A DNA stretch of 64,000 nt from Pelagomonas calceolata (lineage: Eukaryota): contig CAKKNE010000003.1 in NCBI GenBank assembly GCA_918797485.1, forward strand, positions 3,472,001 through 3,536,000. The letters are read 5' to 3'. The position numbers were made by a program, and so were the translations under genes. Shown piece by piece: positions 4,212 to 49,947 of this stretch; positions within the stretch are counted from its first letter, which is position 1, and each line of letters opens with the position of its first letter. The notes under the pieces were generated by a model. The model had not been told where the DNA came from, ran no database searches, and saw only the letters and a program-made list of their open reading frames with translations.

Positions 4212-4235
4212 GCTAGTGTCTTACATGCCGCTAGC
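4212..4235 (-). promoter_or_regulatory. CTAG-bounded upstream motif copy
   Basis: GCTAGTGTCTTACATGCCGCTAGC between divergent G6PD and the 4425 gene. Confidence 0.65.
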
Positions 4236-4424
4236 AAAATTACGTGCGACGCCCGGCAGCTGTCCACCGAGGGCTCGACGAGGCCTGACGGACGCGTCGC
4301 GGACGGATCCAACCCTCTCCCAACCCGCTCGATTATTCACACATCATCGCGTCAATCGTCGAGCTTTTCGGCCCGGGAGGCAACGTCTGGAGCTACGGAG
4401 CTGCCGAGCAGTGCGTTTGGGAAG

Positions 4425-5244
4425 ATGGCGCGACGACTGATTGTCGCGCTGGCCCTGAGCACCGCGTCGGCCCTCGTGGCACCCGTCCCCCTCGCCTCGA
4501 CGGCAAGGCGGCAGCGGCCCGTCGTCCGGGACCGTGCGGAAAGCAAATATCGGGCGCCCAACGCTAGCTGTTGTCTTCGTGGCTGCAACTGCTCGATGGC
4601 GTGGAGGTTCCAGGCCATCGACGCGCCGTCGTCGCCGCGACCGCGTCACTCACCTATCAAAATCCACGCAGGTCCAGGAGTCCTTCGGCTTTGATTTTGC
4701 GGAGGACCAGGCCGAGAACACGGCCGACGGCATCCTCGGAGAAAGACGCCTCAAGGAGGAATTCATTAGGAGCTACAAGCCGACGGCGACGGTGCTCGAA
4801 GGGAAACCGTACCCGGTCTTCCAGGAGGTCCAGGAGAAGCGCATCCTGAGCGCTACCGTGAACTCCGGGCTGCTGCAGTCTTTGGACAACCTCGGTTTAG
4901 GATTGGGAGACGTCGAAAAATTACTCCCTTTCCTCGACAAGTTCGGCCTCATCGGTTTAGTAAGGAAGAACCTGCCGCTGGCGATCATCGCGACGGGCTA
5001 CCTGCTCATCGAGCCGGCGCCCTTCCTCCTGCCCGTGCTTGGATTATTATTATCCATCCCCACGGCCGCGTGGACGGCGGTCGCCGCCGTGACGACGGGC
5101 GCGGAAATCTACCTCAACGCCTTCGCGTCCTTCGAGGACGCGGGCCTCGTGTCGCTGTTGCTGGCGCCGCTCCTCCTCATCGCGGGCGTGCTCAGCCTCG
5201 TGCCGACGGCGATCGGGGCCATCAAGAGCCTGCCGCCGGTGTAG
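4425..5244 (+). CDS. Plastid-targeted membrane protein, DUF1118-like; two exons (intron ~4524-4671)
   Basis: Signal peptide plus ASA-L motif (MARRLIVALALSTASALVAP) splices in frame to VQESFGFDFAED. C-terminal hydrophobic helices. Confidence 0.65.
4524..4671 (+). mobile_element. Introner-like intron
   Basis: GT...CACGCAG with near-duplicated boundary GTCCGGGA/GTCCAGGA. Shares GGAAA.CAAAT.TCG..GGCGC and GCTCGA.GGCGTGG with the 26381-26560 element. Confidence 0.6.
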
Positions 5245-5383
5245 GTCGGATGCGGGGAGTAACGGTCTTAGGCGGTATGTACGTCGAGTCTTCGCATGCG
5301 TGCACCAGTCGCCCGCGGTGGGGTTACGGGCGCGGCACCGGTCGCCCGTCGACGACGGGGTTCGTCTTTCGCCGCTGCGTTAG

Positions 5384-5839
5384 GCCCGCGCGGCAAATCG
5401 CGGCGTCGTCGTCGCGCCGGACGCGGCGCGCGCGCAGACGGCGACGACGTCCAAGTTCTGGGGCGTGACCTGGGACAAGCCGGCGCGGCGGTGGAAGGCG
5501 CAATACACCGACGCGAACGGCAAGAAACGCCACCTGGGTCTCTTCGACACCCAGGAGCAGGCCGCGCACAGGGTCAACGCGGCTATTCGCAGGGCGGGGC
5601 TCGAAGGCCACCGTCGCACGAACCCGGTCGTCGACGGGCAACTGGTGCCCAAAAAGCGCAAGGCGAATGGCCACGGACCGAAGGCGTTGCGCAAGCGCCG
5701 CCGCGAGGAGGCCGCAGCCGCGCCGCCGCCGCGCGCCCGCCGCCCGCGCCGCGCGGACAACGACGACTCCGAGCCCGACGCCGACGACGACGAGGACCTC
5801 GAGTTGGCGCCGCCCGACGACGAGGACGGCTGGGACTAG
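5384..5839 (+). pseudogene. 5'-truncated AP2-domain gene copy
   Basis: SKFWGVTWDKPARRWKAQY...HLGLFDTQEQAA is an AP2 domain. In-frame TAG at 5381 and no ATG. Preceded by an inverted AP2-tail fragment (5324-5405). Confidence 0.55.
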
Positions 5840-5882
5840 AACAGCCTAAGAGAACCCCCATCGAAGTATAAACAACAGGACA

Positions 5883-8003
5883 TTAGGAGTACCCGAACGG
5901 ATAGTCCGGCGCCGGCGCCTCCTCCTCCACCTCTTCCACGCGGAGCGCCCCGGGGTCCGTCGCCGCCTTCAACGCTAGCCGGATGGCGCGACTGGCGGCG
6001 CGCTCCGACGCCCGCGCCAACACTTCGATCAGCGCCGCCCGTAGCGACGGCGCGTCGTACAGCGACTGGGCCACGGGCTGCACCTTGCGAGCTGCTCTCG
6101 TAACACTACCGATGTCGACGTCGCCACCCTCACCATCCCCCAACAAAAAGTCTCGAGCAGCTAATAAAGCGGCGGCCGCCGGGGGCGCCTCGCCCTCCTG
6201 GTGGCCATTCAGAAAGTCTGGAGGTTCGGGCAAGTCCAGTCCCGCGGCTGAGGCCACGTCTAAGGCTACACCCACACCCAGATAGTCCAACGCATCGGCT
6301 AGATCATCCACGAGCTTCTCCCGGAGCGGGCCCGCGCTTTCCTCCGTCAATGCTGTGATGAGATAAGCGGCGACGGCGGACGCGTCGTATTCACTGGACG
6401 AAGAAGCTCGGTTCAGCAACGCCTCGAAGCGGCGCCATTGCGGCTTCTGGTCCTTGAACAGGAGGTTCGTGAGGGCTCGTCGCAGTTCGGGAGCCTCGTC
6501 GGTCAGCAGGCGGGCAGCGACGTACGGGTAAGCATCATTAACAATTCGGAACCCAGGATCCACCTGTATAGCGACGCCCTCGAGCACGCCCAAACACCTT
6601 ATAATAGCGACGTAGAACGGCGGCAGCGCGAAGGGGAACGTGTACATGACATCTCCCAGTCGCGAGGCCACGTTTTTTACATTCAATTCACTGACAGGAG
6701 CATCCAAGACGTCCGGCAAGGCGTCCTGCAGGCCGCGCACGATGGGCTTGACGTCCGTGCCCGCCTTGATGAAGCCCATCCTTACATACAAGTCGGCCAG
6801 GGCCTCGAAGTCGCGATTCACGAGATGAACCACAGCCTCGATGATCGAGACCCTTTGACGCTCTTCCAGATAGGACATCATCCCGAAATCCAAGTAGCAC
6901 AACCTGCCATCATCTGTCGCTAATAAGTTGCCGGCGTGCGGGTCGGCGTGGAAGAAGCCGCTATCCAACATCTGCCGCAGACTACACTGTACCAAGGCGT
7001 CTACCAATCTCGTACCAGCTTTATCGTCGCCCGTATACACGGCCAACTCGGCCCCGTCCACCAATCGCGTCCCGTCGACCCACTCCATCGTCAGGACTGT
7101 GGAGGTCGTGAGCTCGTCATATATCTCCGGAACTCGTATCGTATTCTCGTAGCCCTGATATAATTTAGCGAACTGCCTCGCATTTCTCGCTTCGGCGCGG
7201 TAGTCGATCTCGCGGTATATTAATGCTCCAAAATCATCGACCACTGAGACTAGGTCTAGGTCCCTTCCAAACGCGCGCACGAAGAACGACGTGCCGAGCC
7301 GCGCCCACCACCTTAACACGAACAGATCCAACGCGACGACGCGCTCGCAGTCCGGCCGCTGGACTTTAAGCGCGACGACTTTCCCGTTCCTTAATCGAGC
7401 CTTGTAGACCTGACCGATACTTGCAGCAGCTACCGGCTCATCCACGAGCAACGTGAAGACGTCCGTGAAATTCCTTAAACCGAGAGACGCCTCGACCCTC
7501 CGTAAAGCTTCGTCGGTGGGAAAGGCCGGCACGCGGTCCTGGAGCTCTTGGAGTTTCCTGAGATACTCTGCTGGGAGAAGGTCTGGTCTCGAGGCCAATG
7601 CTTGCCCGCCCTTGATGACGGCTGGTCCTAAATTGGAGATGAGCTCCAGCAACTCCGACGCTCGTTGCTCCCTCCTCTGGAGTTCGCAGTTCATGGCCCG
7701 GTCACTGATTATTGAGGCGATAAAGCCGGCCAAAGGGAAAAAAAGTTGCACATTTCGTGTGAGCCATCGTCTCGGTTGTCTTGTTAACAACTTCTGGGCC
7801 TTGTCCGGATCATATCTAATCTCGGCCTCGGCTACCGGGTTCTCCGGTTGTTGGGTGGGGAGGTCCGTGAGCGCCGCGCGGAGCCTCGTCAGCTGGAGTG
7901 AGTCTCGGCCGCTCAAGGGCGGCGGCGGCGCGGCACGGTGGCGCGGCGCGAGGAGCGCTGCGGCTTGTGTGGTGAGGAGCGTGGCGAGTAAGCGGCGCGC
8001 CAT
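5883..8003 (-). CDS. ABC1/UbiB-family atypical kinase, probably plastid-targeted
   Basis: LGPAVIKGGQ, AAASIGQVYKA, VALKVQRP, FFHADPHAGN and LDFGMM motifs. Confidence 0.93.
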   Translation of the reverse strand: MARRLLATLLTTQAAALLAPRHRAAPPPPLSGRDSLQLTRLRAALTDLPTQQPENPVAEAEIRYDPDKAQKLLTRQPRRWLTRNVQLFFPLAGFIASIISDRAMNCELQRREQRASELLELISNLGPAVIKGGQALASRPDLLPAEYLRKLQELQDRVPAFPTDEALRRVEASLGLRNFTDVFTLLVDEPVAAASIGQVYKARLRNGKVVALKVQRPDCERVVALDLFVLRWWARLGTSFFVRAFGRDLDLVSVVDDFGALIYREIDYRAEARNARQFAKLYQGYENTIRVPEIYDELTTSTVLTMEWVDGTRLVDGAELAVYTGDDKAGTRLVDALVQCSLRQMLDSGFFHADPHAGNLLATDDGRLCYLDFGMMSYLEERQRVSIIEAVVHLVNRDFEALADLYVRMGFIKAGTDVKPIVRGLQDALPDVLDAPVSELNVKNVASRLGDVMYTFPFALPPFYVAIIRCLGVLEGVAIQVDPGFRIVNDAYPYVAARLLTDEAPELRRALTNLLFKDQKPQWRRFEALLNRASSSSEYDASAVAAYLITALTEESAGPLREKLVDDLADALDYLGVGVALDVASAAGLDLPEPPDFLNGHQEGEAPPAAAALLAARDFLLGDGEGGDVDIGSVTRAARKVQPVAQSLYDAPSLRAALIEVLARASERAASRAIRLALKAATDPGALRVEEVEEEAPAPDYPFGYS

Positions 8004-8194
8004 CGTCCTCCGCGCGCCCCGCTATAGCAGGTGCTGTCCCTGTGTACTTTGCTTGTGCTTGATGAGAGCTCTTCCAGGCGCTCAGTGCGTAGCGCGCGGC
8101 ACCGGCGGGTACCGAAAGACACTCCGTGCCACTTTTTACGCGCCGGTCGGGTGCGCAGCTGCCAGGGAACCGAGAAGAGCAGGGCTGAGCAAGT

Positions 8195-8217
8195 GCTAGT
8201 ATGTACACGACGCTAGC
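8195..8217 (-). promoter_or_regulatory. Degenerate CTAG-bounded upstream motif copy
   Basis: GCTAGTATGTACACGACGCTAGC between divergent genes. Confidence 0.45.
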
Positions 8218-8418
8218 GGCGTTCGGCCGCGGCTCTTGGCGTTTTAGCCCTTAGGAACGCGCCGAACACGCTTCAGACCTGGGCAATAAACCAAGACGAC
8301 CCGCTGCGCCGTCGAGCAAGTCGCACATATCACCCGCGCGCGCCACCAAACCTCCGGCAGCTTTTTGCCCGCGGCAGCTTTTCCTACACGCCGTGCGCAC
8401 CGGTAAACACCAGCACCG

Positions 8419-8874
8419 ATGGCCGCCCAGCAGCAGCAGCCGCGCGGCATCCTCAAGAACAAGCACGAGGCCGGCAATAGGCCCCACCTCACCTGGGACG
8501 AAGAGACCATCGCGGAACACGACAAGGAGCGAGGCACGCGCATGAAGATCGACGAGCCGGACACGCCCTACGCGCGCTACGACCCGGCCGAGGACCCCGA
8601 CGTCGTCCAAGGGGCTTCGCCGCTGAGCCCGCCGAAGGAGCTCCAGCCCGTCCGGTCGACGTCTCTAGATGATCACTTAGGTGATCTCTCCGAGAAATTA
8701 GCTAGAGCAGCAACCGATTCCGAGAAACCGCGAGCAGCCTTGTTCGTCGAGGAGGAGGAGCGAGACGAAGCGAAGGCCCGAGCCTTCGCTGCCAAAAGAC
8801 AGCAGCACTACAACATGGCGGGACTGCTGGGCAGGAAGTGGGACGAGGAAGACGAGATGGAGGACGACGACTAA
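8419..8874 (+). CDS. Protein phosphatase 1 inhibitor 2 (IPP-2) family
   Basis: GILK, LTWDE, MKIDEPDTPY and FAAKRQQHYN motifs. Confidence 0.9.
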   Translation: MAAQQQQPRGILKNKHEAGNRPHLTWDEETIAEHDKERGTRMKIDEPDTPYARYDPAEDPDVVQGASPLSPPKELQPVRSTSLDDHLGDLSEKLARAATDSEKPRAALFVEEEERDEAKARAFAAKRQQHYNMAGLLGRKWDEEDEMEDDD

Positions 8875-8885
8875 TGACTGTGTTT

Positions 8886-9425
8886 TTATCGACCTACTTT
8901 CCCTAGGGCAGCGTTCGTCTTCGGGTTGGCCACGAAGTTCTGCCCTTTCACGAGCACAGAATTGATGCCGTCCTGGAGCTTGCGCAGGTCCGACACGTAG
9001 AAGAGGCGCAGCGCGTCCTTCGGGTCTCCATTTCCATTCTTCGCCGCGACTCGTGCACAGGCACTCGTGAGGTCGTCGGCGCCCAATGATGCACAGAGCT
9101 TCGACACGCGGCTTTCGTCGACGTCAGCCTGCTGCGGCTTCGCCGCCTCGTCCTCGAGCTCGCATTTGACGGCTTCGTGCAACAACCAGACCAGCGCTTG
9201 CGACGGTTGTAACACGGGGCACTCGAGCTCTTGCAGATAGCTTTGAAAAGCGGCGTCGAACTCGACACCAGCCGTTCTCAAGGGCTTACGCTGCTCGATC
9301 TCCCACAACCGGATCTTCCGGTCTTCCACCCAGCTCACGAGCTTCGCGACGGCGGCGGCGTCGCCCGCGAATGGGAACGGGTACTCGAGCGCGTCCAGTA
9401 ACCGCTGCACGACGGGCGTCGCCAT
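8886..9425 (-). CDS. RTRAF/CGI-99 (C14orf166)-like protein
   Basis: [22 protein letters not shown] and C-terminal [33 protein letters not shown]. Confidence 0.85.
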
Positions 9426-9680
9426 GAGTGGCGGTTGCGGTCGCGGCGGCGATCGCTGCGCTGCGGCTACGTGGTGTCGCCGCGGCGATAGCGCGCGGTC
9501 TTCGCCTCTGCGCTCGGCGAGGGTGCAAGTGCGGTGCTCGGCGACGGCGCACGAATGCGAGCTCGCTCCGCAAAAAGGCGTGCAGCCGGCGCGCTCGCGG
9601 CGTGGACAGGGATGGTGCACGTGTAGTTACGGCTTTTTGGCCTACCAGCGGCAAAAACTCGTAGCAGGCAGGCAATGTTA

Positions 9681-9704
9681 GCTAGCGGTCAGTAAGACAC
9701 TAGC
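9681..9704 (+). promoter_or_regulatory. CTAG-bounded upstream motif copy
   Basis: GCTAGCGGTCAGTAAGACACTAGC between divergent genes. Confidence 0.65.
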
Positions 9705-9977
9705 AACAAGCAGAGCAGCGGCGGCTTGCTCGGCGTGTTGCGGCCTAAACGACAGGCCCACAGCCCCTGACGAAGGCTAAGCATCGCTCTGGTCCGAGCA
9801 GCACGCTGTCGTAGCGCGTAGCGCCGCCAAGGCATCACACCACACCACCCTGCCAAAAACCACTGCCAAAGTGTACGCAGCGCTACGCGGCGGGGCGCCA
9901 GTACTCGAAAAAAAGGCCGTCCTCACACCGCGCGTCGCTGCCAGCCGCAAGAAACCGTTGCCAAAAGACCGCAGAGC

Positions 9978-11069
9978 ATGTTCCACCTCCCCGGACGAGG
10001 TACCACGGCCCTCACCGTCAAAAGCTCACCACCGAAGACCGCGCAAACGGCGACGCGACTCGGTGTCAGGGCGGGCGTCCTCACAAAACGCGACGAGCGC
10101 GGCGCGTGGCAACGCCGGTACTGCGCTCTAGTCCCGCAGACGTTACTATTTTACTATGATGATGAAACGAGTGACGACGCGCGCGGTATTATCGACTTGG
10201 AGTACTACGGCGACGTGCAGATCGTGCGGGGCCGAACGCTACGTCTAGCCACCGCCTCTGACGTTCCACTGCGATCCTTCTTCTTCCAGGCGGAAACGGA
10301 GGAGCAGGCCCAGAAGTGGTGCGAAGCTTTGAGTAGGGAACGGTATTTTGTGGTCGCCGATGAAAGAGATGCGTACAGAGAACTGCAGGGCGAGTTCTCG
10401 ACGACGCGCGCGCAGGACGACGAGTCGTGCTCAAAGATGCGGGAGGCTTCTCAAGAAAGAAATGCGGCGGCTTCGTTATCGGAAAAACGAGCAGCCGACG
10501 CGTTGGAGGTTTTAAGGGATCAGGCCTTGGCCCTCGGTCTCGCGCCGCGTCAGGCGGCTGCGTTAACTACACCAGCAGCCGCAGCACGGGAGGTGGCCCA
10601 CCGGCTCCACTTCTGCGGGCGACGGCGCGAGTCCCTCGAACGGGCGTTGCAGGCGCTCGAGACGTCACAGCCGGAGCCGCCCGATGCCGCGGAAAAGCGT
10701 CAGTCTACCATCGCCGCATTGCGAGCGAAATTAGCTTCACAAAAACAAAAGACGGCCCACGCCTCGACGTCGCGGCTCGCCGCCGACGCGCGGCGCGACG
10801 CGGCTCTCCAGACCGCGCGCGCGGCGCGGGCCGCGGTCGCCGCCGCGGCTTCCAGAAGGTCGCGCGCCGAGCGGAGCGCGGCGGAGCTCGTCGACCAGAA
10901 GCGCGTGCTCGTGAGGGAGGTGCGCGAGCGGCGCGCGCGGCTCGACGACGCGCGGCGCGTGTCGTCGTCGCTGGAACACGCTGCAGATTTGCCGGCCGCC
11001 GTCGCGGGGCTGAGCGTGGACGACGCCGTCGAGCGTCTGAGAAGGGGGTCGGCGCCGATGGTCGGGTAA
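9978..11069 (+). CDS. PH-domain coiled-coil protein
   Basis: AGVLTKR..GAWQRRYCAL...LFYY...FFFQAETEEQAQKWCEAL followed by coiled coil. Confidence 0.85.
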   Translation: MFHLPGRGTTALTVKSSPPKTAQTATRLGVRAGVLTKRDERGAWQRRYCALVPQTLLFYYDDETSDDARGIIDLEYYGDVQIVRGRTLRLATASDVPLRSFFFQAETEEQAQKWCEALSRERYFVVADERDAYRELQGEFSTTRAQDDESCSKMREASQERNAAASLSEKRAADALEVLRDQALALGLAPRQAAALTTPAAAAREVAHRLHFCGRRRESLERALQALETSQPEPPDAAEKRQSTIAALRAKLASQKQKTAHASTSRLAADARRDAALQTARAARAAVAAAASRRSRAERSAAELVDQKRVLVREVRERRARLDDARRVSSSLEHAADLPAAVAGLSVDDAVERLRRGSAPMVG

Positions 11070-11098
11070 TGTGGTGAGTTGTATGTTCTTACTGATGC

Positions 11099-11720
11099 CT
11101 AGCGGCGGCGGGCGCGCGGCGACGGCGCGGCGGCGGGCTCGTCGCGGCGGCGCTTCTTGCGCAACGCGGCGGGCCCGTGGCCGTTCGGAACCTTGGTGCG
11201 CACGCGGGGGACCAATTGCCCGTCGACGACCGGGTTCGTCCGCCGCTTCCCTTCGAGCCCAGCGCGTCGGATGGCCGCGTTGACGGCGTGCGCGGCCGCC
11301 TCCTGCGTGTCGAAGTTGCCGATGAAGCGCGTCTTGCCGTCCGCGTCAGTGTAGCTCGCCCGCCACCGCCGCTTGCTCTTGTCCCAGTTCACGCCCCAGA
11401 ACTTGGACGTCGTCGCCGTCTGGTCGTGCGCTTGGTCCGGCGCGACTACGGCGGAGCGGTCGCCACGGTCTTGATCGAGTCTGTTGGGCGCGCCAGATCG
11501 TTTTGGCACCAACGCACCCGTCGCGTCGACGGCGTTCATGCGCCGCTTGCCTTCGAGGCCCGCGTCGCGAATAGCTTGGTCACGCGCGCGCGCGGCCTCC
11601 TCCTCGTCGTCGAAGTAGCCGATGGTGCGCTTCTTGCCGTCCGCGTCACTATACTGCGCCTTCCATTTCTTGTGTTGCCGATCCCAACACACGCCCCAGA
11701 ACCGCGACGACGCCGTTCGC
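11099..11720 (-). CDS. Tandem double AP2-domain protein; start not resolved (no in-frame ATG seen)
   Basis: Two S(R/K)FWGV.WD....WKA.Y.DADGK...IG.FD..E.AA repeats. Paralog of 5384-5839. Confidence 0.7.
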
Positions 11721-11990
11721 GCGCCGCCGTCGCCTTCTTCCGCGACAGCCGCATTGAAGCTGGAGTGAACTAAATGCCAAATGTCACCGCGGCCTAAGTG
11801 TGCGGTCGGCGGGCCTCTTGGGCGGTCAAACGAAAACCCCCACAGACCAGAGTGTTCCCGCGGCGACCAGCGGCTCGAAAATCACTGAGAGCAATTCGCT
11901 GCTGGAAAAACCCGCCCCGAGCCAGAGACTGAGTGCACGCCATCGCGGCGAGACGCGTACTACCGCAACGACATCTAAATTAACGAGATA

Positions 11991-12578
11991 TTATGCCTTC
12001 GCCGCCTGCGCGAGGTCGTCCGCCGAGGACGCTTTTTTGAGGCCCGCCGTGACGATCTTCCGGATTCTCTCAAGAGAGCTTTTGTTGCCGTCGAGCGACA
12101 CGCAGGCGTCCTCCGTGTAGGGCGCATCTACCCTAACCTGGTCCAGCACATTTATCGAATCACCAGACCAACTACAATCAAGGGTCTTGGACAAAGCGTC
12201 GAAGCAGGCCTGCCCCGCCGCCGACGCGTTCGGGTTCAGCATGGCCATGGCCGCCTCCATGGCCTCGTAGGCCTCCGACTCGCGCTTCTTGCACGCCGCG
12301 ACGTCGATGGCTGGCAAGGGCGCGACGAGCGCCTTCTTGTCCTTGGCGTCGGGCGGCTTCACGACCTTTATACTATCAATGGCGTGCTCCGGGACTAACC
12401 GCACGTCTCTACTGTCTTGCGTGACGGGTTTTTCGGCCGCCGAAAAGAGGACCACGGTTTTTGTCACCGGGTCGACGGTGTAGACGGCGCCCTCGCAGCT
12501 GCCGGAGTCCTTGAGTTTTATCGAGACGGTGGCGCCTATTTTCAATTTGTCGACGGCGACTTTGCCATTTGATGCCAT
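11991..12578 (-). CDS. LSM12: LSM12-like protein (Lsm plus anticodon-binding AD domain)
   Basis: EGAVYTVDPVTKTVVL and GQACFDALSKTLDCSWSGDSINVLDQVRVDAPY. Confidence 0.85.
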   Translation of the reverse strand: MASNGKVAVDKLKIGATVSIKLKDSGSCEGAVYTVDPVTKTVVLFSAAEKPVTQDSRDVRLVPEHAIDSIKVVKPPDAKDKKALVAPLPAIDVAACKKRESEAYEAMEAAMAMLNPNASAAGQACFDALSKTLDCSWSGDSINVLDQVRVDAPYTEDACVSLDGNKSSLERIRKIVTAGLKKASSADDLAQAAKA

Positions 12579-12758
12579 CGCGGCGGCGGCGGCTAGCGCG
12601 CTGCTGCGGCGAGCTGCAATGGGGCGGCGGCGGGCGCTGCTCCGCACACGTTAAGCCCTTGGATCCTTCCGAGGGTGCTAGCGACGAGCCGTGTGGATGC
12701 GTAAATGAACTTAAGCTGGCGTTTTGCGCAGCGATTTTACTCGACAAAAACACAGCTA

Positions 12759-12782
12759 CCTAGCGGCCTGTAAGACACTAGC
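12759..12782 (+). promoter_or_regulatory. CTAG-bounded upstream motif copy
   Basis: CCTAGCGGCCTGTAAGACACTAGC between divergent genes. Confidence 0.7.
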
Positions 12783-13014
12783 AAGCCAGCCAAACAGATC
12801 CTTCCGTCCATTTTGTTTTTGAGACTCGTGGCTCGAGCGCTGCGGAGACCCTTCGTTGTTTAAAACTCCGCGCCGCACAACTCAGCCTCCCTGAGGAGCT
12901 CGAAGGTCTCGAGCCTCCCGCGCGCATTCCTGCATCCCGCAACTGCGCCGCATTGCCAGTAGGTCAAAGCCATCCCAGGCTCGCGCGCAAGCCCCCCGCG
13001 AGCCGCCCTACACC

Positions 13015-13956
13015 ATGAGTGACCAGCCTCCTGACCAGCCCATGGAGGACGCCGCGCCGGCCGACGCGCCGCCGCCCCCAAGCCCGGCCGACGTCATCCT
13101 CCAGCGCGCCCAGCGCAATTCAAGAGGAGTCGATCGCGAGGCCGAGGCCGCCGAGCAGCGCTGGGCGTCCCTAGGCGGCGGCAGCGCGCTCGGTGATGGC
13201 ACGACGGAAGCGGCCGCGCCGGCGCCGGCTCCTCAACAATTGGAGACGCTCGACGTCCGCGTGACCTTCTTCGCCGACGGCTTCACGGTCGAAGAGCAGA
13301 AGCCCAAAGAGACGAAGCCCGAGCCCCCGAGGCCGAGGCGCGGCGGCACGGCCACGCTCCAGGACTTCGCCGCGCCGCCGAGACCTCCGACACTCCCGAC
13401 GGACTTCCCGGAGCTGCGGCCGTTTGATAGTGACGAGTCGCGGGAGTTCCTGGATCATTTAGCTAGAGACGAGGTGCCTCCATCTTTGAGAAGACCGAAC
13501 CGGCGCGTGCGGTTTGGCGTGGCCGACGCGCGGCCGATGCCCTGCCCCTGGGGGCCGCAGGCGCCGTCGCGCGAGGCGCTACAAAGGGCGATGGGCCGCC
13601 AACGAAGAGCAGCGCCAGTGCAGGAGAAGTTTGTCGGTGAGGGCCAGGCGCTCGGCGGCTCTTCGACGCCGGCCGTCGAGGACACTGCGCCGCTGCCCGA
13701 CGCGCCCGTCGTCGACGCCTCGAAGCCGGTCGCGAAGTTCCGTTTGCGCCTCGCGTCGGGCAAGGCGCTGGCCGTCGAGCTCAACCAGGACCATACCGTC
13801 GGCCACCTGCGCGCGTTTATCGGGGCGCAGGGCGCGGGCGACAAGCCCTACGACCTCCTCGCGGGCTTCCCGCCGAAGCCCCTACTGGACGCGGGGCAGA
13901 CCGTCGGCGCCGCGGGCCTCGCCGGCGGCGCCGTCTCCCAGAAGCTCCGGGCCTAG
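13015..13956 (+). CDS. p47/Shp1-like SEP-UBX domain protein
   Basis: VTFFADGFTV (SEP), FVGEGQALG (SHP box), C-terminal UBX with AGFPPKPL. Confidence 0.85.
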   Translation: MSDQPPDQPMEDAAPADAPPPPSPADVILQRAQRNSRGVDREAEAAEQRWASLGGGSALGDGTTEAAAPAPAPQQLETLDVRVTFFADGFTVEEQKPKETKPEPPRPRRGGTATLQDFAAPPRPPTLPTDFPELRPFDSDESREFLDHLARDEVPPSLRRPNRRVRFGVADARPMPCPWGPQAPSREALQRAMGRQRRAAPVQEKFVGEGQALGGSSTPAVEDTAPLPDAPVVDASKPVAKFRLRLASGKALAVELNQDHTVGHLRAFIGAQGAGDKPYDLLAGFPPKPLLDAGQTVGAAGLAGGAVSQKLRA

Positions 13957-14005
13957 TCGTTTTCGTTTCCCTCCCTCTGTAAGTAAGCGTAGTTCTCCTC
14001 GTGCC

Positions 14006-15178
14006 TTACGCGCCCCCCGGCGGCATCGCCTCGACGCCTTCGCGGATTGATTCGACGTCGCTTTCGCGGGCGTGGAAGGCTGCTCGTGCATCTCGCAGGC
14101 ATTTCTCAAGCCCCTTTGTGATCGGATGCGCACCACCGAAGACGCGCCGCGCGGTCCGTTCCAACTCCTCGAACGTCGTCACGGCCTCGCGGACGTCGTC
14201 GAGCGTGGCGCCAGGGTCACTTTTGAGCGCCTCTGCGTAACATCCCCTCATCTTGAGCGTGACACTATCACTCTCTCCGAGAACGCGTGGCGCCACGGGT
14301 ATAGCTTTGCGCAGCAGTGACTTGACTTCTCCGAAGCGCCGTAGACTCAGAAGGCACGACGCGTAGTTGGTAACTGCCAGGAGGGTGTCCGCATGTTGAT
14401 CGCCATTGAGCTTCAAACGTCCAGAGTATACGTCTCGCCGTAGGCGTAGGGCTTCGCCTAGCCTACCTAGCATTTGATACGAATTCGCAAGGTTGCTCTG
14501 CACAGTGAGTATGCTACTTTCTGATCCTTCAAGGCGCCGCAGCATAGACAACTCGGCCTCTCTGATGGACGCCGCGTCCGCGTGGCGGTCTGCATCAGAT
14601 AAACCACACCCGAGCCGCGACATCGCAAGTTGCTGAAGCACTTCATTATCCGAGTACTTCAGGTACGTCTTCCAGCACGCCCACCCGAGCGCACACGACA
14701 CGACACTGTGGTAACCTTGCTCGCACAGGCTACACTTGTGCCACCGCCGCCAGCTCGCTTGGCCCCTCTTGTCATGCCAGTTGTTCGCCTTGGCCTCCTC
14801 GAACAAAAGCTTCGCCTGCTCCACCAGGCACGACACGTGCGCAAAACCCGCCGTTCCGCGGCACGCGCACCCGCGCACGAGGCCCTCCTTCGTCTTCCAA
14901 TGAAGGGCTTGCGTGCAGATGAAGCACGTCTGGCCCTTCGTGTCCTCGGCGCACTTCTCGACCGCGACCGATACGGCCTCCGTGTATTTTGTATCAGCAT
15001 GATATTGCTCCGCGCCGCCTGCTTTCTTTATCTTCTTGCAGAGCGTGTCGTGGCCGCCCTCTTTCCAGTGCTGCACCTGGCACTCGGCGCCGCAGTAGCG
15101 CGTGCTGCAGCGGCCGCATTTCTTCCCCAAGGATAGCCCAAGCTCGGTGGCGCAGACGGCGCACTGCGTGAGGATCAT
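14006..15178 (-). CDS. MYND zinc finger + RING-variant + TPR (kinesin-light-chain-like) protein
   Basis: CAVC...CGRCSTRYCGAECQVQHW...H...C, then CFIC...CACRGTAGFAHVSCL, then helical repeats. Paralog of 28785. Confidence 0.85.
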   Translation of the reverse strand: MILTQCAVCATELGLSLGKKCGRCSTRYCGAECQVQHWKEGGHDTLCKKIKKAGGAEQYHADTKYTEAVSVAVEKCAEDTKGQTCFICTQALHWKTKEGLVRGCACRGTAGFAHVSCLVEQAKLLFEEAKANNWHDKRGQASWRRWHKCSLCEQGYHSVVSCALGWACWKTYLKYSDNEVLQQLAMSRLGCGLSDADRHADAASIREAELSMLRRLEGSESSILTVQSNLANSYQMLGRLGEALRLRRDVYSGRLKLNGDQHADTLLAVTNYASCLLSLRRFGEVKSLLRKAIPVAPRVLGESDSVTLKMRGCYAEALKSDPGATLDDVREAVTTFEELERTARRVFGGAHPITKGLEKCLRDARAAFHARESDVESIREGVEAMPPGGA

Positions 15179-15238
15179 CTTCGCTCGGGGGCAGCCCTAC
15201 GATGCAAAAAAGCCTCAAAAAGCCTCCGCAGGCTAAAT

Positions 15239-15262
15239 ACTAGTGCCTTACGAGACGCTAGC
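15239..15262 (-). promoter_or_regulatory. CTAG-bounded upstream motif copy (TAAGGCAC variant)
   Basis: ACTAGTGCCTTACGAGACGCTAGC between divergent genes. Confidence 0.6.
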
Positions 15263-15407
15263 AAGCAGCTTTGGTCGCAGCGCCAGAGTGCTGCCAAACA
15301 AAGGCCCAGCGCTGCTCCGGACATCCAAAGTATTCGACCCATACCGCCACAAGACCGCACGCCACGGAAACGCCGAGCCAGAGCCCCTCCCCCAGCCCTG
15401 CAGCAAA

Positions 15408-16142
15408 ATGCCACCGGCCAAGGTGCTCTGCCTCACGACGGGCGGGTCATTGGACAAGACCTATGATGGCGTCTCCTCCTCATTCATAGTAGGAGCGCCG
15501 ACGGCGAAGCGCTGCTTGAGAAATGTGCAGTGTGCCCACAACGTCGAGTACGCCGAGGTCTGTCGCAAGGACTCTTTAGAGTTAACAAAAGGTGATCGGG
15601 AAGTCCTCGACGCCGCCGTGAGGGCCGCGCCCCAACAATACATCGTCATCACGCACGGCACGGACACGCTGAACGTGACGGCGAAGGCCTTGCAGCGCAC
15701 CGCGATAGCGACGGGCAAGACGGTAGTCTTAACGGGCGCGATGAAGCCGTATGCCTTCATGGAGAGCGACGGCCCGTTCAATCTAGGTGCCGCGTTTACC
15801 GTGGTCACGTTATTACCGCCGGGTTGCCACGTCGTCTTTCACGGGAAAGTGTTCAGTGATCCGGAGTTGATAGTCAAAGATGTCAAAAATGATCGCCTCG
15901 TCGAGAAGGTCGCGAAATCAATCCCAGACGTGCCCGAGGGCATCTGCGCGTATTTTGCGGCGGGAAAACGGTGCAAGTTCGGGGCGAAGTGCCGCGACCG
16001 GCACTGCGCGGCGGACGCTGATGATAGGCCGCCGACGCCGCCGACGCCTTCTACGCCTTCTATGCCGTCGAAGGGCCGCGGGCGGGGGCGCGGGCGCGGA
16101 CGGGGTCGCGGGGGGCGCGGGCGGGCCCGGGGACAGGCATGA
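15408..16142 (+). CDS. Short asparaginase-domain protein fused to a CCCH zinc finger and RG/RGG tail
   Basis: TTGGSLDK, DSLEL, ITHGTDT and VLTGAMKP motifs, then C-x8-C-x5-C-x3-H, then GRGRGRG. Confidence 0.85.
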   Translation: MPPAKVLCLTTGGSLDKTYDGVSSSFIVGAPTAKRCLRNVQCAHNVEYAEVCRKDSLELTKGDREVLDAAVRAAPQQYIVITHGTDTLNVTAKALQRTAIATGKTVVLTGAMKPYAFMESDGPFNLGAAFTVVTLLPPGCHVVFHGKVFSDPELIVKDVKNDRLVEKVAKSIPDVPEGICAYFAAGKRCKFGAKCRDRHCAADADDRPPTPPTPSTPSMPSKGRGRGRGRGRGRGGRGRARGQA

Positions 16143-16161
16143 CAGGTAAAATTTTTTATGA

Positions 16162-17439: not shown

Positions 17440-17720
17440 CGCGGGCGTTCGAGAGGTGCGCAGGCGATGCAAAGCAAGAGTCCACGCTCGTGAAGCCGCG
17501 CGCAGAGGCAGCGGGGTATATTAACCAAAAGGCTTCGCAGGCCCTAAAGTTTCGGCCTAATAAATAACATCCTGCACAGCCTGGGGGCAGCCCCAAGCGG
17601 TGGTCTCCCGGCGGCAAGGGGGTCAAAGACAATGCAGCCACGTTCCGCGAAGGCACGCCACCGTCGCGTCAGCCGTTCTGCGGAGATCTGAGAATCGACA
17701 AGATCGGCCTCGTGCGGGTT

Positions 17721-18257
17721 CTATCCACTACTTAGCCTCTCGACCAGCGCCGCGCGCATGCGCCCCCGCGCCTCCGCCGCGGCGCCGAGCGCCTCGTCGA
17801 GGGCCGCGGCCGTGTCGCCCGCGCCGTCGACGCGGCTCGCGACGACGCCCTCAGCCGTCGCGACGAGCGCGAGCGCGCCCTCGCCCAGTTCCACGCAGCC
17901 GCCGCCGCACAGGCCCCGCAGCGGTATGTCCGCATCACATAAGGCGAGGGACGCCGCCATGCACGCGGCTGCGAGTTCGCCGCGGCCGCTGTTCAAAATG
18001 ACGGCCCGTAGTTTGATAAAGGCCTTGGGCCCGCCCGGCGCGAGGCAGCTTTTGAGGGCGCGCGCGACGTCGTCTCCATTGATTTGGGGAGCGTCGAAGG
18101 ACGCGGCCTCGACCTCGCAGTCTATTGTTAGTCCGTCGCGCCGCGCCGCTTCCAGTCTACAGGCGACGGAGACGCTGGAGCCGTCATAAAAGACCGTGGC
18201 ACTACCAGCGGCGTCGGCGACGGTGCCGAGGTCGATGCGTAGGGCCTCGCCGGCCAT
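17721..18257 (-). CDS. RNase PH-like exosome subunit (Rrp46-like)
   Basis: ADAAGSATV...SVSVAC and ELAAACMAASLALCDADIPL. Confidence 0.7.
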   Translation of the reverse strand: MAGEALRIDLGTVADAAGSATVFYDGSSVSVACRLEAARRDGLTIDCEVEAASFDAPQINGDDVARALKSCLAPGGPKAFIKLRAVILNSGRGELAAACMAASLALCDADIPLRGLCGGGCVELGEGALALVATAEGVVASRVDGAGDTAAALDEALGAAAEARGRMRAALVERLSSG

Positions 18258-18433: not shown

Positions 18434-18457
18434 GCTAGCGTCCTGTAAGACACTAGT
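18434..18457 (+). promoter_or_regulatory. CTAG-bounded upstream motif copy
   Basis: GCTAGCGTCCTGTAAGACACTAGT between divergent genes. Confidence 0.7.
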
Positions 18458-18521
18458 TCCAATTGGTTCGAGACTCATGACCCAACAGCTGATAATGCAT
18501 GGCTGCCCTTCATAATTTATC

Positions 18522-20303: not shown

Positions 20304-20329
20304 GCTAGTGTGTCTTACAGTCCGCTAGC
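20304..20329 (-). promoter_or_regulatory. CTAG-bounded upstream motif copy
   Basis: GCTAGTGTGTCTTACAGTCCGCTAGC between divergent genes. Confidence 0.65.
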
Positions 20330-24086: not shown

Positions 24087-24108
24087 GCTAGCGCATCAAC
24101 ATACTAGC
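24087..24108 (+). promoter_or_regulatory. Degenerate CTAG-bounded upstream motif copy
   Basis: GCTAGCGCATCAACATACTAGC about 80 bp upstream of the RING-CH start. Confidence 0.35.
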
Positions 24109-27415: not shown

Positions 27416-27437
27416 GCTAGCCTGTAAAGACACTAGG
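27416..27437 (+). promoter_or_regulatory. CTAG-bounded upstream motif copy
   Basis: GCTAGCCTGTAAAGACACTAGG upstream of the DENN gene. Confidence 0.55.
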
Positions 27438-28687: not shown

Positions 28688-28710
28688 GCTAGCGGCTGTA
28701 AGGCACTAGT
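28688..28710 (+). promoter_or_regulatory. CTAG-bounded upstream motif copy (TAAGGCAC variant)
   Basis: GCTAGCGGCTGTAAGGCACTAGT between divergent genes. Confidence 0.65.
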
Positions 28711-37464: not shown

Positions 37465-37752
37465 TGTGGGGCTGCCCAAGGCGGCCGTGTAGGGCCGAAT
37501 GGCAGCCCGCAGGCCGTCAGCAGCCGGTCGGAGGGGGTCTCCGCGCGACCGTTGCGTGCGACAGAGATTCGTGCGCCGTGTACCGCGGTCACGAATTGCG
37601 AGAGGCTGTTTACAAACCTTGCATCGGGGTCGGGGTCGTCGGGTCGCATTTGCACGCGCTGCTCGGGACGGGTAGGGGGCGAGACGGAGGCGTATGGAAA
37701 CGTGCGAAAGCTCCCTCCGCGGCTCGCGGGCAGGGACCTGTTTTTGCTCTCC
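37465..37752. repeat. ~280-bp dispersed upstream repeat, copy 2
   Basis: Homologous to 32383-32664 and abuts a CTAG motif copy. Confidence 0.85.
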
Positions 37753-37754
37753 TG

Positions 37755-37778
37755 GCTAGTGTGTTACAGGCCGCTAGT
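37755..37778 (-). promoter_or_regulatory. CTAG-bounded upstream motif copy
   Basis: GCTAGTGTGTTACAGGCCGCTAGT between divergent genes. Confidence 0.65.
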
Positions 37779-42140: not shown

Positions 42141-42274
42141 GTAAGTGTGTTTGACTACAACGGCTACGCGATTTTACATGCCCCCCGGTCGTCGCGCGAG
42201 CTCGCCCAAGAGCACGGGCCGCCTGCAAAACGGACACGGGGCTCGATCACGGCAGTATGAAGTGCCAGTGCAGT

Positions 42275-43889
42275 CTAGGGTGCGATTTACGCACGGCGTT
42301 CTTTACGTGAGAAACGGCCCAGCGTCATTTACGCCGTAATTTACGCGTAATTTACGCGTGCATTTATTTATAAAACCCGCACACACGCAGCCAGAGCCCC
42401 TAAACAAGGCCTTGGTGGCCACGCAGCTCAATAGCAGCACGAGCACGGCGCATAAGCGCACACCTAGAGTGCACACCTTGCTCGCAACAGCATGCAACTA
42501 GCAATTGGCTCGGCTCTGACAACGTTTGGGGCAGCCACACTCTGCGAGCTGCTGATCGCGAGCTAGAGTCTTAGAGCTTGACGTACTAGCCCACACTGCC
42601 TACTAGCTCCCACGCCGGCACGCGAGGCACAATACTGCCTCATGTGCCGGCGTGGGCGGTGCGGCTGCCTGGGTGCCCCGTAAGGGCTGCGCCGCCGTCC
42701 GTGCCCCAAGGGCTGATGGGGGCAGGCTTTTTTCCCCCGGGCGATGCGACGGCGGTGCCGTGCGGCACTGCCCCATAAGCACGCAACCTCCGTACGTCGC
42801 CGCACGACGTCGTTGCTCAGCGCTTTTGCGATATGACGTTCGCCCAGAACCCACGAACGAGTGACCAACAGGGTTTTGTAGTGCGATGAGGTTTGATTGT
42901 AAACGCGGGCGTCAAACGAGGTGCGCTCGACAAGGTGTAGACGAATAGCGAAATGGGCTCCACGACCAAAACCTGTCAGCACGGTCCTCCGCGGGGTTCG
43001 TGGGAGCTGCGCGGACCGCTTGGTTGCTCGGGAAAACCCTCTATCTGTCACTTTTTCTCCTAAAAATGTTAATTCCTATTATTACTAAACGGGTATTCTT
43101 TGGGACAGACTCCGGCGAGCCATTTGTTACCCTTAGCCTACGAAGGCACAAAACCCCGTCTATGGGCTATCGACACAGACCAGAAGGCTGCCCTGAGGCC
43201 GTGGGAGCGGCCGAAGAGTCGGGGTTTCTGCTCCCGGCGCGGCACCGCGCGCTGCGACGTTTTAAGTGCAAAAACACACTTTTCTATTACCATGGAGCCT
43301 AATTGACGAGTCGAGGCAACCTGGTGGTAAGTGCCGAGGCCGCACTTCATCCGTAGGTACGCCAATTGCTGCCCATTCACCGTCGCGTACGACACCGTGT
43401 CGTCGGCGACGTGCCGCAGACGGTCGGCATGAGGTGTTGGGGCCTCAACGAAGGTTGGCGCCTCGGGGCACATCCATGAGACGGCCTCGGAGCGCGGGCA
43501 TGCGCCGCGGACGGCCCATCTCGCGAAACGGGAGAGTATCGCTTCTGAGAGCGTGTGGTTTCAGGGTGCTCATGCTCGTCAATGCGGCCGCGGACTGCAA
43601 CGCGGCAGCCCGCGCCATGGTCGGGACCACGGACGGGCCCGCACCGCCAATCCGCGCTCCAATCGACCGAATAGAGGCCGAGTATGCCCCCTGAGAGCAC
43701 GCCGGCGTCATGAGAGCAGCTAGTGTGGGCTAGTACGTCAAGCTTAGAGGGCCGCTAGCGCCGGCTTCGGGAAGAGCCCTGGAAGGACTTTTGGATACCT
43801 CCTTTTTTACGCCGTTTTTTACGTGGGATCTCCTGTAGCGGTGCTTTACGTGTAACTTACGCGTTTTTTCCGCGTAAATCGCACCCTAG
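42275..43889. mobile_element. Non-autonomous TIR DNA transposon (8-bp TSD, hAT-like)
   Basis: Perfect 18-bp TIR CTAGGGTGCGATTTACGC / GCGTAAATCGCACCCTAG. Perfect flanking AGTGCAGT at 42267-42274 and 43890-43897. Subterminal TTTACG repeats at both ends. Confidence 0.88.
42575..43744. mobile_element. Nested non-autonomous TIR element
   Basis: Perfect 23-bp TIR AGCTTGACGTACTAGCCCACACT (42575-42597) / AGTGTGGGCTAGTACGTCAAGCT (43722-43744). Direct repeat CTTAGAG at 42570-42576 and 43743-43749 (TSD length 3-7 bp is ambiguous). Confidence 0.85.
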
Positions 43890-44024
43890 AGTGCAGTAGA
43901 TAAAGTGTAGATAAAGTAGTAGATATGGCAGTATGCCAGTAGAGTGTTGTAGTGCAGTCTAGTACTTCTAGGGGCTAGTCGCTGTGCTCGGAGTTGACGA
44001 TAGTTCATACAACAGAAATATTAA

Positions 44025-46193: not shown

Positions 46194-46370
46194 CGCTTCG
46201 CTTTGCTGTGGCGTCGACGGCGTGCTGGGGCTGCTGTGTGTGCTTGGCTGCACGCTTTACTTCGCGAAGCCGTGCTTGGGAGTTGAGCGCTGATGTGGAG
46301 TACCACAAATCGCACGCACACGCGTGGACGGCGCAGTTATAGGCTCGTTTTGCGCCCGGTTTGCCGGCTA

Positions 46371-46394
46371 GCTAGCGACCTGTAACATACTAGC
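46371..46394 (+). promoter_or_regulatory. CTAG-bounded upstream motif copy
   Basis: GCTAGCGACCTGTAACATACTAGC between divergent genes. Confidence 0.6.
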
Positions 46395-46666
46395 AAGCAC
46401 GCGCGAGCCGGCCGACGCCGTTTGTTTCGTAGTAGCTGTACGTGGAGGACCCGCCGAGAGTCCTGCAATGCGGGTTCCTTACACGACCGAAAAACCCGCT
46501 ATTTAGGTGGTCTTCCAAACCACACGATAAAAGCCGCGGGAGACGGCGTCCTCGTTGCACGTGGCGCTTGCCAGTTGCGACAACAACTCATTCGCTGCGC
46601 GGCCACGCCGCTCGGCCCGCAAAAACCACGTCTGCGCCGTAAAAACGCTCCAGTAGCCGCGGAAGG

Positions 46667-47953
46667 ATGCTCGCGGCGCGCCTCCTGCGCGGCGCGCGTG
46701 GAGCACTGCGGAGTGCGACGCCCGTCGCCAAGCGCCGCCTCGCCCTCCCGCCGCACAATGTGGTAAGCGTCCCCGCGCTCTCCCCAACAATGGAGACCGG
46801 GACGATCGCGCGGTGGCACGTCGCGGAAGGCGACGCCTTCGGCGCCGGCGATAGCATAGCGGAGGTCGAGACGGACAAGGCGTCCATGGAGTGGGAGATG
46901 CAGGACGATGGGGTCGTGGCGAAGCATTTGGTGGCGCCGGGCACCGAGGTGGCCGTAGGAACGCCGGCCGTGGTCCTGGTCGAGGATGCGGCGGACGTGG
47001 GCGCCTTCGCGGACTTCGAGGCTCCCGCCGGCGCTGTACCCGCGCCGGCGCCGGCCGCCGCGCCGGAGCCGGCGCCAGCACCGGCCGCCGTGCCGGCCGC
47101 CGCCCCCGTCGTCCCGGTAGCAGCGCCGGCGCCGGCCGCGCCGTCAGGCGGACGCGTCGCCGCGTCGCCGCTCGCCCGCAAGGAGGCGCAGGCCAAGGGC
47201 GTCGACCTGTCGCGCATCGTCGGCACCGGCCCCGGCGGCCGCGTCACCTTCGACGACGTTCACAATGCCCCGGCCCAGGCCGGCGTCGCCCAAGCGCACG
47301 CGTCGGACTACGCCATCTCGCCGGAAGCCGCTTATCTAGCCGCGAAGCTCGCCCACTCGGCCCAGACGGCGCCGCACTACTACCTGACGATGGACATACA
47401 AGTGGGGAAAGCACTAAAGCTGTTGGAGGAGCTCAACGCGGGCGAAGACGCGAAGATCGGCCTCGGCGACCTATTCGTGAAGGCGGCGGCGAATGCGGCG
47501 GTGGCCGTTCCCGACGTGAACGCGTCGTGGCTCGATGGCGTCGTGAGGCAGTACCAGCGCGTGGACGTCAACTTAGTCGTGGGCGTCGGTGAGGGTCTGC
47601 GGGCGCCGGTCCTGATTGGTGTCGAAGATATGTCGCTGAAGGATGTCGCTACTGCCTCTGCGACGGCGATGGAGGATGAATCGCCCTACATGGCTGGTAC
47701 GATGACGGTACAAAACTTAGGCGCGTTCGGTTTGAGCAGCGCGGCGCCCGTCGTGCACACGCCGCAGGCCTGTTGCCTGGCGCTCGGGGCCGTCGTCGAT
47801 GCCGCGGCGCTCGTCGACGGGAAGGTCGTGTCGCAGCCCAAGCTCGCGGCGACGCTCGCGGCGGACCACCGCGTCGTCGACGGCGCGGTCGGCGCCGCGT
47901 GGCTGGCGGCGCTGCGGGCGCTCGTCGAGGCGCCGGCCAAATTGCTCCTTTAG
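46667..47953 (+). CDS. Mitochondrial pyruvate dehydrogenase E2 (dihydrolipoamide acetyltransferase)-family protein
   Basis: PALSPTMETG, ETDKA lipoyl motif, ASPLARK..GTGPGGR binding domain and DHRVVDGA. Confidence 0.92.
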   Translation: MLAARLLRGARGALRSATPVAKRRLALPPHNVVSVPALSPTMETGTIARWHVAEGDAFGAGDSIAEVETDKASMEWEMQDDGVVAKHLVAPGTEVAVGTPAVVLVEDAADVGAFADFEAPAGAVPAPAPAAAPEPAPAPAAVPAAAPVVPVAAPAPAAPSGGRVAASPLARKEAQAKGVDLSRIVGTGPGGRVTFDDVHNAPAQAGVAQAHASDYAISPEAAYLAAKLAHSAQTAPHYYLTMDIQVGKALKLLEELNAGEDAKIGLGDLFVKAAANAAVAVPDVNASWLDGVVRQYQRVDVNLVVGVGEGLRAPVLIGVEDMSLKDVATASATAMEDESPYMAGTMTVQNLGAFGLSSAAPVVHTPQACCLALGAVVDAAALVDGKVVSQPKLAATLAADHRVVDGAVGAAWLAALRALVEAPAKLLL

Positions 47954-48127
47954 AGCGCGTTCCTATCCTATAAGTCATCGTGATCATACTTGAGTCTTAG
48001 GCGAGTTGCTTGGTCGTGCCCTGTCCAGTCGCCGCACGAGCTCGGAGGAAAACTCAAGGAGGAACCGTAGTAGAAGGGAGGTATCTTGGAGCCTCTCGTG
48101 ATGATGGAACTCTCGGATGATGGACGC

Positions 48128-48157
48128 GCTAGCCTGTCTTACAGGTAAGACACTAGC
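48128..48157 (+). promoter_or_regulatory. CTAG-bounded motif copy with internal palindrome
   Basis: GCTAGCCTGTCTTACAGGTAAGACACTAGC upstream of GST. Confidence 0.6.
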
Positions 48158-49927: not shown

Positions 49928-49947
49928 TTTGTTGTTGGTGTTGTTTC

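What the first reader, a model, noticed from the sequence alone, without database searches (positions are those of the whole stretch)
4212..48157. Recurrent 24-bp CTAG-bounded motif marks gene starts, mostly bidirectional promoters
Seen: the consensus GCTAGCGGCCTGTAAGACACTAGC occurs at 4212, 8195, 9681, 12759, 15239, 18434, 20304, 24087, 27416, 28688, 37755, 46371 and 48128. Ten copies lie between head-to-head genes and three lie upstream of tandem genes. I saw none in coding sequence or between convergent genes. The two CTAG half-sites start about 17-21 bp apart (25 bp in the expanded 48128 copy), roughly two helical turns, around a conserved TGTAAGACA core. Inference: this is a genome-wide core promoter or nucleosome-positioning element bound by an unknown dimeric factor. 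I do not know of a description of it.
Basis: partly seen in the sequence, partly recalled or inferred. Interest (0 to 1): 0.85.

Follow-up and report, generated by a model that had tools for sequence, protein, structure and literature searches.

The report
Genome-wide promoter landmark in Pelagomonas alga
A 24-base near-palindrome sits between gene starts throughout the genome of the abundant ocean alga Pelagomonas; it likely binds an unknown master protein that opens promoters and would set the positions of neighbouring nucleosomes.

Summary
The motif is real. All 13 copies are at the stated coordinates, although three are weak. The window is Pelagomonas calceolata. The motif lies in 10 of 16 divergent, 3 of 10 tandem and 0 of 16 convergent intergenic regions. 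About 7,500 marine metagenome stretches hold an exact core match, with unrelated flanks, and 0 of 144 sites in fetched loci lie in predicted coding DNA. RNA 5' ends pile up 20-58 or 116-135 nt outward of the motif, so it is not a fixed-distance core promoter element. It is two imperfect 9-bp inverted arms around a conserved 6-bp middle; CTAG spacing is mostly 18 bp, not two helical turns. New here: CG dinucleotides peak about 105 and 295 bp from the motif on both sides, anchored on the motif rather than the ATG. That is a nucleosome-scale register, but two further nucleosome tests were negative. Helitron-end and target-site-duplication tests failed. Best reading: the site of an unknown Reb1/Abf1-like general regulatory factor (0.6). 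I found no description in 10 literature searches.

The parts
4212..4235 (-). motif copy, 45 bits; between G6PD (-) and a highly expressed gene (+); RNA 5' ends at 4350-4363
8195..8217 (-). weak copy, 8.7 bits, 1-bp deletion; ABC1 kinase (-) / IPP-2 (+); RNA 5' end at 8237
9681..9704 (+). motif copy, 39 bits; RLL-family gene (-) / PH-domain gene (+); RNA 5' end at 9761
12759..12782 (+). motif copy, 45 bits; AD-domain gene (-) / UBX gene (+); RNA 5' ends at 12720-12740
15239..15262 (-). motif copy, 25 bits; MYND-TPR gene (-) / asparaginase (+)
18434..18457 (+). motif copy, 31 bits; RNase PH gene (-) / ankyrin gene (+); RNA 5' end at 18412
20304..20329 (-). motif copy with 2-bp insertion, 22 bits; p24 (-) / IF-2 (+)
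24087..24108 (+). weak copy, 12 bits, 2-bp deletion; tandem, upstream of a RINGv gene (-)
27416..27437 (+). motif copy, 20 bits, 2-bp deletion; tandem, upstream of a DENN-like gene (-)
28688..28710 (+). motif copy, 26 bits, 1-bp deletion; oxidoreductase (-) / MYND-TPR paralogue (+)
37755..37778 (-). motif copy, 38 bits; small membrane gene (-) / ankyrin gene (+)
46371..46394 (+). motif copy, 38 bits, in the RNA-free gap between a lipase-like gene (-) and a 2-oxoacid dehydrogenase E2 gene (+); RNA 5' ends at 46525-46528
48128..48157 (+). expanded copy made of two back-to-back right halves; tandem, upstream of GST (+); RNA 5' ends at 48189 and 48197

Best explanation
The motif is a conserved promoter element of Pelagomonas that likely binds an abundant, unidentified general regulatory factor, which would hold the promoter open and set the register of nucleosomes on both sides. 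Shown: its sequence (arms GCTAGYGKC around CTGTAA, often followed by CAAGC), its position upstream of genes and outside coding DNA, RNA 5' ends 20-135 nt outward, and CG peaks about 105 and 295 bp from each edge. Inferred: a dimer or two-domain protein reads both arms and the middle; remodellers align nucleosome arrays symmetrically to it, as at yeast Reb1 sites; the CG peaks are linker DNA of the Dnmt5-type algal methylation system, which would place the +1 nucleosomes about 200 bp out and leave an open region of about 230 bp; polymerase starts on whichever side has a gene.
For: Position: 13 of 26 start-containing intergenic regions and 0 of 16 convergent ones; 0 of 144 metagenome sites in predicted coding DNA, which is 66% of those loci; 58 of 59 fully called sites face at least one gene start. 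RNA: the 46371 copy sits in a bin with depth 0-0.19 between divergent transcripts; 5' pile-ups lie 20-58 nt from the edge for 5 genes and 116-135 nt for 2. Selection-like variation: the four unconstrained middle positions are 66-80% consensus, and deviations are 103 transversions to 27 transitions in 122 sites; the commonest variant makes the left arm more like the right. Conservation: the orthologous promoters of L015 and L032 (genes 82-87% identical) keep the motif with three changes, all in the variable middle, while one flank barely aligns. CG register: 158 flanks; the profiles of the two sides correlate at 0.78 (jitter null 0.08 +/- 0.23, 0 of 1000); peak contrast 0.028 against 0.013 (0 of 1000); contrast is 0.027 anchored on the motif and 0.013 anchored on the ATG; CG gives the largest contrast of the 16 dinucleotides. 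Literature: symmetric, orientation-independent phasing at Reb1 sites (10.1101/2020.02.28.969618, passages); linker methylation in the pelagophyte Aureococcus (10.1101/2021.06.11.447926 and PMC5728721, passages).
Against: No binding, nucleosome or methylation data were available. There is no clear third CG peak near 485. CG autocorrelation in the window and the long loci has no 190-bp peak. Introner-like ends are not phased to the motif (n=15, p 0.6-0.9, rough boundaries). The 295 peak is not seen in the 26 window flanks alone (0.004, CI -0.026 to 0.032), although the 105 peak is. The CG analysis was post hoc. Metagenome sites and both orthologue partners were selected for matching the pattern. 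RNA-seq 5' ends come from one sample and are only proxies for start sites. Six of 16 divergent promoters, H2A/H2B among them, lack the motif. That CG content marks linkers is recalled from Huff and Zilberman 2014, which I did not read.
Confidence: 0.6

Rival explanations
1. It is the site of a widely used transcription activator with no special role in chromatin; the CG peaks reflect 5' UTR and N-terminal coding composition.
For: Promoter position, RNA ends and the substitution pattern fit equally well. The nucleosome cross-checks were negative. GCTAGC is the AP2XI-5 motif in Toxoplasma promoters (PMC13734140, passages), and Pelagomonas has an expanded AP2 family.
Against: The 295-bp peak stays in place whether the ATG is near or far, and it halves when anchored on the ATG. 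Adjacent genes share no evident function.
Confidence: 0.22
2. It is the relic or footprint of a transposon that inserted into open promoters at CTAG and has no present function.
For: 44 of 122 sites share one identical middle. CTAG at both ends could itself be a duplicated target. Loose look-alikes occur in a 1.6-kb inverted-repeat element at 42269-43895 and in a small repeat family in four loci.
Against: 129 of 130 sites have unrelated flanks. There is no flanking duplication of 2-9 bp in 117 sites. The Helitron-type T after CTAG occurs in 1 of 122. The transversion excess and the retention across diverged orthologues argue against neutral decay. The hairpin is weak in the consensus-like copy (z 0.54).
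Confidence: 0.07
3. It is a classical core promoter element that fixes the start site at a set distance and direction.
For: Three of the four 5' ends on the GCTAGCG side begin 20-23 nt from the edge.
Against: Other ends lie at 33-41, 58, 116-129 and 132-135 nt. One copy serves two directions. ATG distance is the same on both sides (medians 182 and 167, p=0.82).
Confidence: 0.06
4. It serves chromosome mechanics rather than transcription, as a replication-origin, loop-anchor or recombinase-type site with 9-bp arms and an asymmetric 6-bp spacer.
For: The arm-spacer-arm layout resembles tyrosine-recombinase sites (recalled). The symmetric CG register also fits a CTCF-like architectural factor.
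Against: Arm spacing tolerates -2 to +2 bp. Only 1 of 59 fully called sites lies between two gene ends.
Confidence: 0.05

Closest known systems
Yeast general regulatory factor sites (Reb1, Abf1, Rap1); CTCF and Phaser as phasing barriers
   Same: Frequent promoter site, either orientation, shared by divergent genes, with a symmetric nucleosome-scale pattern on both sides (10.1101/2020.02.28.969618, passages).
   Different: Different sequence, longer (24-28 bp) and pseudo-palindromic with a conserved middle; the factor is unknown; phasing is inferred from CG content only.
Toxoplasma GCTAGC element bound by ApiAP2 factor AP2XI-5
   Same: The GCTAGC hexamer is the left arm; it is promoter-enriched, peaking 84 bp upstream of gene starts (PMC13734140, passages).
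   Different: A single 6-mer in 12.3% of promoters tied to a late cell-cycle programme, against a 24-bp two-arm site beside about half of the gene starts here; no evidence of homology.
ZNF143/SBS in mammals and DREF/DRE in Drosophila (recalled, not from a call)
   Same: Conserved sites at housekeeping and bidirectional promoters.
   Different: Unrelated sequences; no comparison was run.
Oomycete INR/FPR/DPEP core promoter elements
   Same: Stramenopile promoter motifs, 16-19 nt for INR+FPR (PMC3599244, abstract).
   Different: Those lie at or just after the start site and are directional; this motif lies 20-135 nt upstream and works both ways.

Membership tests
General regulatory factor site (Reb1/Abf1 class) | Occurs at a large share of promoters of unrelated genes | tested here: met
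   23 of 42 gene starts in the window; about 7,500 metagenome stretches
General regulatory factor site (Reb1/Abf1 class) | Upstream of start sites, orientation-independent | tested here: met
General regulatory factor site (Reb1/Abf1 class) | Symmetric phased nucleosomes around an open region | tested here: inconclusive
   two symmetric CG peaks; negative cross-checks (partly 69)
General regulatory factor site (Reb1/Abf1 class) | Bound by an abundant sequence-specific protein whose loss closes the promoter | not testable with these tools
   no binding data and no protein-DNA prediction tool
Core promoter element (TATA, INR, FPR, DPEP) | Fixed distance and direction to the start site | tested here: not met
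   5' ends at 20-58 and 116-135 nt on both sides
Helitron 3' terminus | CTAG followed by host T, after a GC-rich hairpin, with shared upstream sequence | tested here: not met
   T after CTAG in 1 of 122; unrelated flanks; weak folding
MITE or cut-and-paste footprint | Target-site duplication flanking the element and a shared body | tested here: not met
   no 2-9 bp duplication outside the CTAGs in 117 sites
MITE or cut-and-paste footprint | Empty single-CTAG alleles at orthologous sites | tested here: inconclusive
   only selected pairs were available; no whole genome held
ApiAP2/AP2 target site | Binding by an AP2-domain protein | not testable with these tools
   AP2 ORFs are present but nothing links them to the motif
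Structured RNA family | Rfam match | tested here: not met
   0 matches at gathering threshold in the window

The most novel reading that the evidence does not exclude
One 24-bp site, read by one unknown factor, organises about half of all promoters in Pelagomonas and is the anchor that phases its nucleosome arrays and Dnmt5 linker methylation so rigidly that the register is written into CG usage of the coding sequence 300 bp away; site and factor may descend from a domesticated mobile element.
Probability: 0.35. Interest if true: 0.85.

Novelty: new variant of a known kind. Interest (0 to 1): 0.63.

Why it matters
Pelagomonas is a cosmopolitan open-ocean picoalga, and I found no described promoter element for any pelagophyte. 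A long, high-information site beside roughly half of gene starts gives a direct bait to purify the factor, and makes testable what sets the phase of the well-positioned nucleosomes and linker methylation of these algae. In practice it marks promoters for annotation, offers a compact two-way promoter for transformation, and flags Pelagomonas DNA in metagenomes, including patches inside four prokaryote genome bins.

Tried and rejected
No whole genome was held, so genome-wide counts are extrapolated. Viral contigs: 0 matches. GTDB: 4 matches, each 1-2 per genome; in the five contigs read they sit near contig ends, and in the two contigs whose ORFs I read they are in short patches beside bacterial-looking genes, so I read them as chimeric assembly, not prokaryotic use. 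Helitron end, target-site duplication, Rfam family and stable hairpin: rejected. RFX X-box (recalled half-site CCTAGCAAC): the last C is only 7 of 122. CG autocorrelation and introner phasing gave no support for nucleosome periodicity. The window's AP2 ORFs as the binder: a fast-evolving multicopy family, 544 hits, top 120 about 55-76% identical, no ATG and low RNA depth, so not favoured. Expression difference: the three motif-less genes in 3400-21000 have low depth, but so has IF-2 beside a motif; not used. Earlier scan findings: three look-ups, nothing shown. Rows dropped: L126-L129 as duplicates in all counts from then on; L125, L112, L032 and L079 as orthologue partners. One predicted gene (ankyrin, 18522) was missed by my codon model and set by hand from RNA and Pfam.

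Full report
Observation. Six match the consensus within 3 mismatches, against none in 100 shuffles. CTAG pairs 15-20 bp apart are 16 against a null mean of 1.1. A matrix trained on 126 metagenome sites ranks the 13 copies first in the window: ten score 20-45 bits, and three (8195, 24087, 48128) score 9-12, within the null range of up to 13. CTAG spacing is 18 bp in 7 of 13, 16-17 in four, 20 in one and 24 in one, so the 'two helical turns' idea does not hold.

Organism. Window proteins lie on a 5,385,517-bp contig, the length on which proteins labelled Pelagomonas calceolata lie. GC of 64% fits the 32.4-Mb, 16,667-gene genome; the main text of that genome preprint has 0 occurrences of 'motif' or 'promoter' (10.1101/2021.10.25.465678, passages; supplements not seen).

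Anatomy. The site reads GCTAGCG(G/T)C, CTGTAA, (G/C)ACACTAGC, often followed by AAGC. The outer 9 bp on each side form an imperfect inverted repeat. In 122 exact-core sites the four free middle positions are 66-80% consensus with 38 variants, and deviations are 103 transversions to 27 transitions; the commonest one makes the left arm more like the right. This looks like a binding preference rather than neutral decay of copies (inference; it assumes the consensus is ancestral). The 48128 copy is two right halves back to back.

Distribution. An 18-base exact core was found in 123 stretches from 2 of 64 parts of the metagenome collection, about 7,500 in all; in 0 viral contigs; and in 4 GTDB bins, which I read as chimeric patches. 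Of 130 sites, 129 have unrelated flanks. One locus is Pelagomonas by a PheRS 96% identical to the representative of the cluster that holds P. calceolata. Its orthologous locus L032, 82-87% identical in genes, keeps the motif at the same place with three changes in the variable middle; both were picked for having the motif. Other pelagophyte genera could not be tested. The window density (10-13 per 64 kb) would give about 5,000-6,500 copies per genome; this is an extrapolation from one window.

Position. In the window the motif is in 10 of 16 divergent, 3 of 10 tandem and 0 of 16 convergent regions, next to 23 of 42 gene starts. In the loci 0 of 144 sites (126 selected, 18 found afterwards) are in predicted coding DNA, which covers 66% of bases. 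Of 59 sites with both neighbours called, 35 are head-to-head, 23 tandem and 1 tail-to-tail; of the other 85, 49 have one start, 8 one end and 28 no call. The ATG lies a median 182 and 167 bp from the two sides (p=0.82). The lean to bidirectional promoters is therefore mostly gene order.

RNA. Stranded reads from four runs of one sample give 5' pile-ups at 8237, 9761, 12720-12740, 18412 and 4350-4363 (12 weaker rows not shown) and at 46525-46528, 48189 and 48197. These are 20-58 nt from the motif edge for five genes and 116-135 nt for two. The 46371 copy lies in a 90-bp bin with depth 0-0.19 between two divergent transcripts. These two layings covered 9 of the 13 copies.

A nucleosome-scale register. 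Averaged outward from the motif, CG frequency peaks near 105 and 295 bp on each side. In 158 flanks of at least 800 bp the two sides correlate at 0.78, and neither this nor the peak contrast was reached in 1000 jittered anchors. The 295 peak stays put for near and far ATGs, and the contrast halves when anchored on the ATG. CG shows the largest contrast of all dinucleotides. Linker-confined CG methylation is reported for the pelagophyte Aureococcus (passages of 10.1101/2021.06.11.447926 and PMC5728721); that CG content itself is enriched in linkers is recalled. If the peaks are linkers, +1 nucleosomes sit about 200 bp out and the two distal start sites fall at their edge. Against this: no clear third peak, no 190-bp autocorrelation, no phasing of 15 introner-like ends (expected from a passage of PMC10228655), and the 295 peak is absent in the 26 window flanks alone.

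Rivals. A Helitron end needs T after CTAG, seen in 1 of 122 sites. No target-site duplication flanks 117 sites. There is no Rfam match. A transposon origin long ago stays open, given loose look-alikes in two repeats. A plain activator is the main rival; GCTAGC is the AP2XI-5 motif in Toxoplasma (PMC13734140, passages), but the window's AP2 ORFs belong to a fast-evolving multicopy family.

Comparison and novelty. It works most like yeast Reb1/Abf1 sites, where remodellers phase arrays symmetrically whatever the orientation (10.1101/2020.02.28.969618, passages). Two defining features were met, one was inconclusive and binding was untestable, so I claim resemblance, not membership. It differs from oomycete INR/FPR/DPEP (PMC3599244, abstract). 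Ten searches of the open library (listings only unless cited above) showed no description; the four papers holding an 11-nt piece are on unrelated animal topics by title and abstract start. Subscription papers were not searched.

Verdict. A real, apparently undescribed, genus-wide promoter element; new variant of a known kind; general-regulatory-factor mechanism 0.6; interest 0.63.

Noticed in passing
window 42269-43895: A 1.6-kb CTAG-rich element with 24-bp outer and 30-bp inner inverted repeats between convergent genes; near 43719-43758 it carries a loose look-alike of both motif ends. No homologue in the fetched loci.
   Followed up: partly
L015:763, L024:4136, L030:4, L031:1450, L051:3545, L057:3505, L099:171, L104:275, L116:330: A companion module of about 20 bp lies 5-57 bp from the GCTAGCG side in nine loci, always in the same orientation; in L104 and L116 it lies between two motif copies.
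   Followed up: partly
window 1040, 15189, 17585, 18501, 28753, 32387, 37470, 49970, 50919, 59878: A second promoter word, GGGCAGCC, is enriched near the motif (29 flanks against 6.4 expected) and also occurs in motif-less promoters.
   Followed up: partly
L030:3121-3215, L057:2082-2158, L087:342-401, L090:190-265: A small repeat family whose end resembles the left two-thirds of the motif; adjacent to a full motif in L087 and L090.
   Followed up: no
window 49941-50165: The H2B/H2A divergent promoter is an 87% inverted self-duplicate and lacks the motif; the two 3' regions share a 36-bp element.
   Followed up: no
window 32383-32664 and 37465-37752: Two upstream regions of unrelated membrane-protein genes are 79% identical; only the second is followed by the motif.
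   Followed up: partly
window 5384-5839 and 11099-11758: AP2-domain ORFs without an ATG and with little RNA, from an expanded Pelagomonas family.
   Followed up: partly
window 14005-15262 and 28688-29958: MYND-TPR paralogues, 77% identical; their similarity ends at the far arm of the motif.
   Followed up: partly
window 4524-4671: A spliced introner-like intron confirmed by RNA; its near end is 290 bp from the motif, at the CG peak, but 14 other such ends are not phased.
   Followed up: yes
L131:1900-3700, L133:1-1700: Pelagomonas-like patches with the motif inside contigs of prokaryote genome bins, likely chimeric assemblies.
   Followed up: partly
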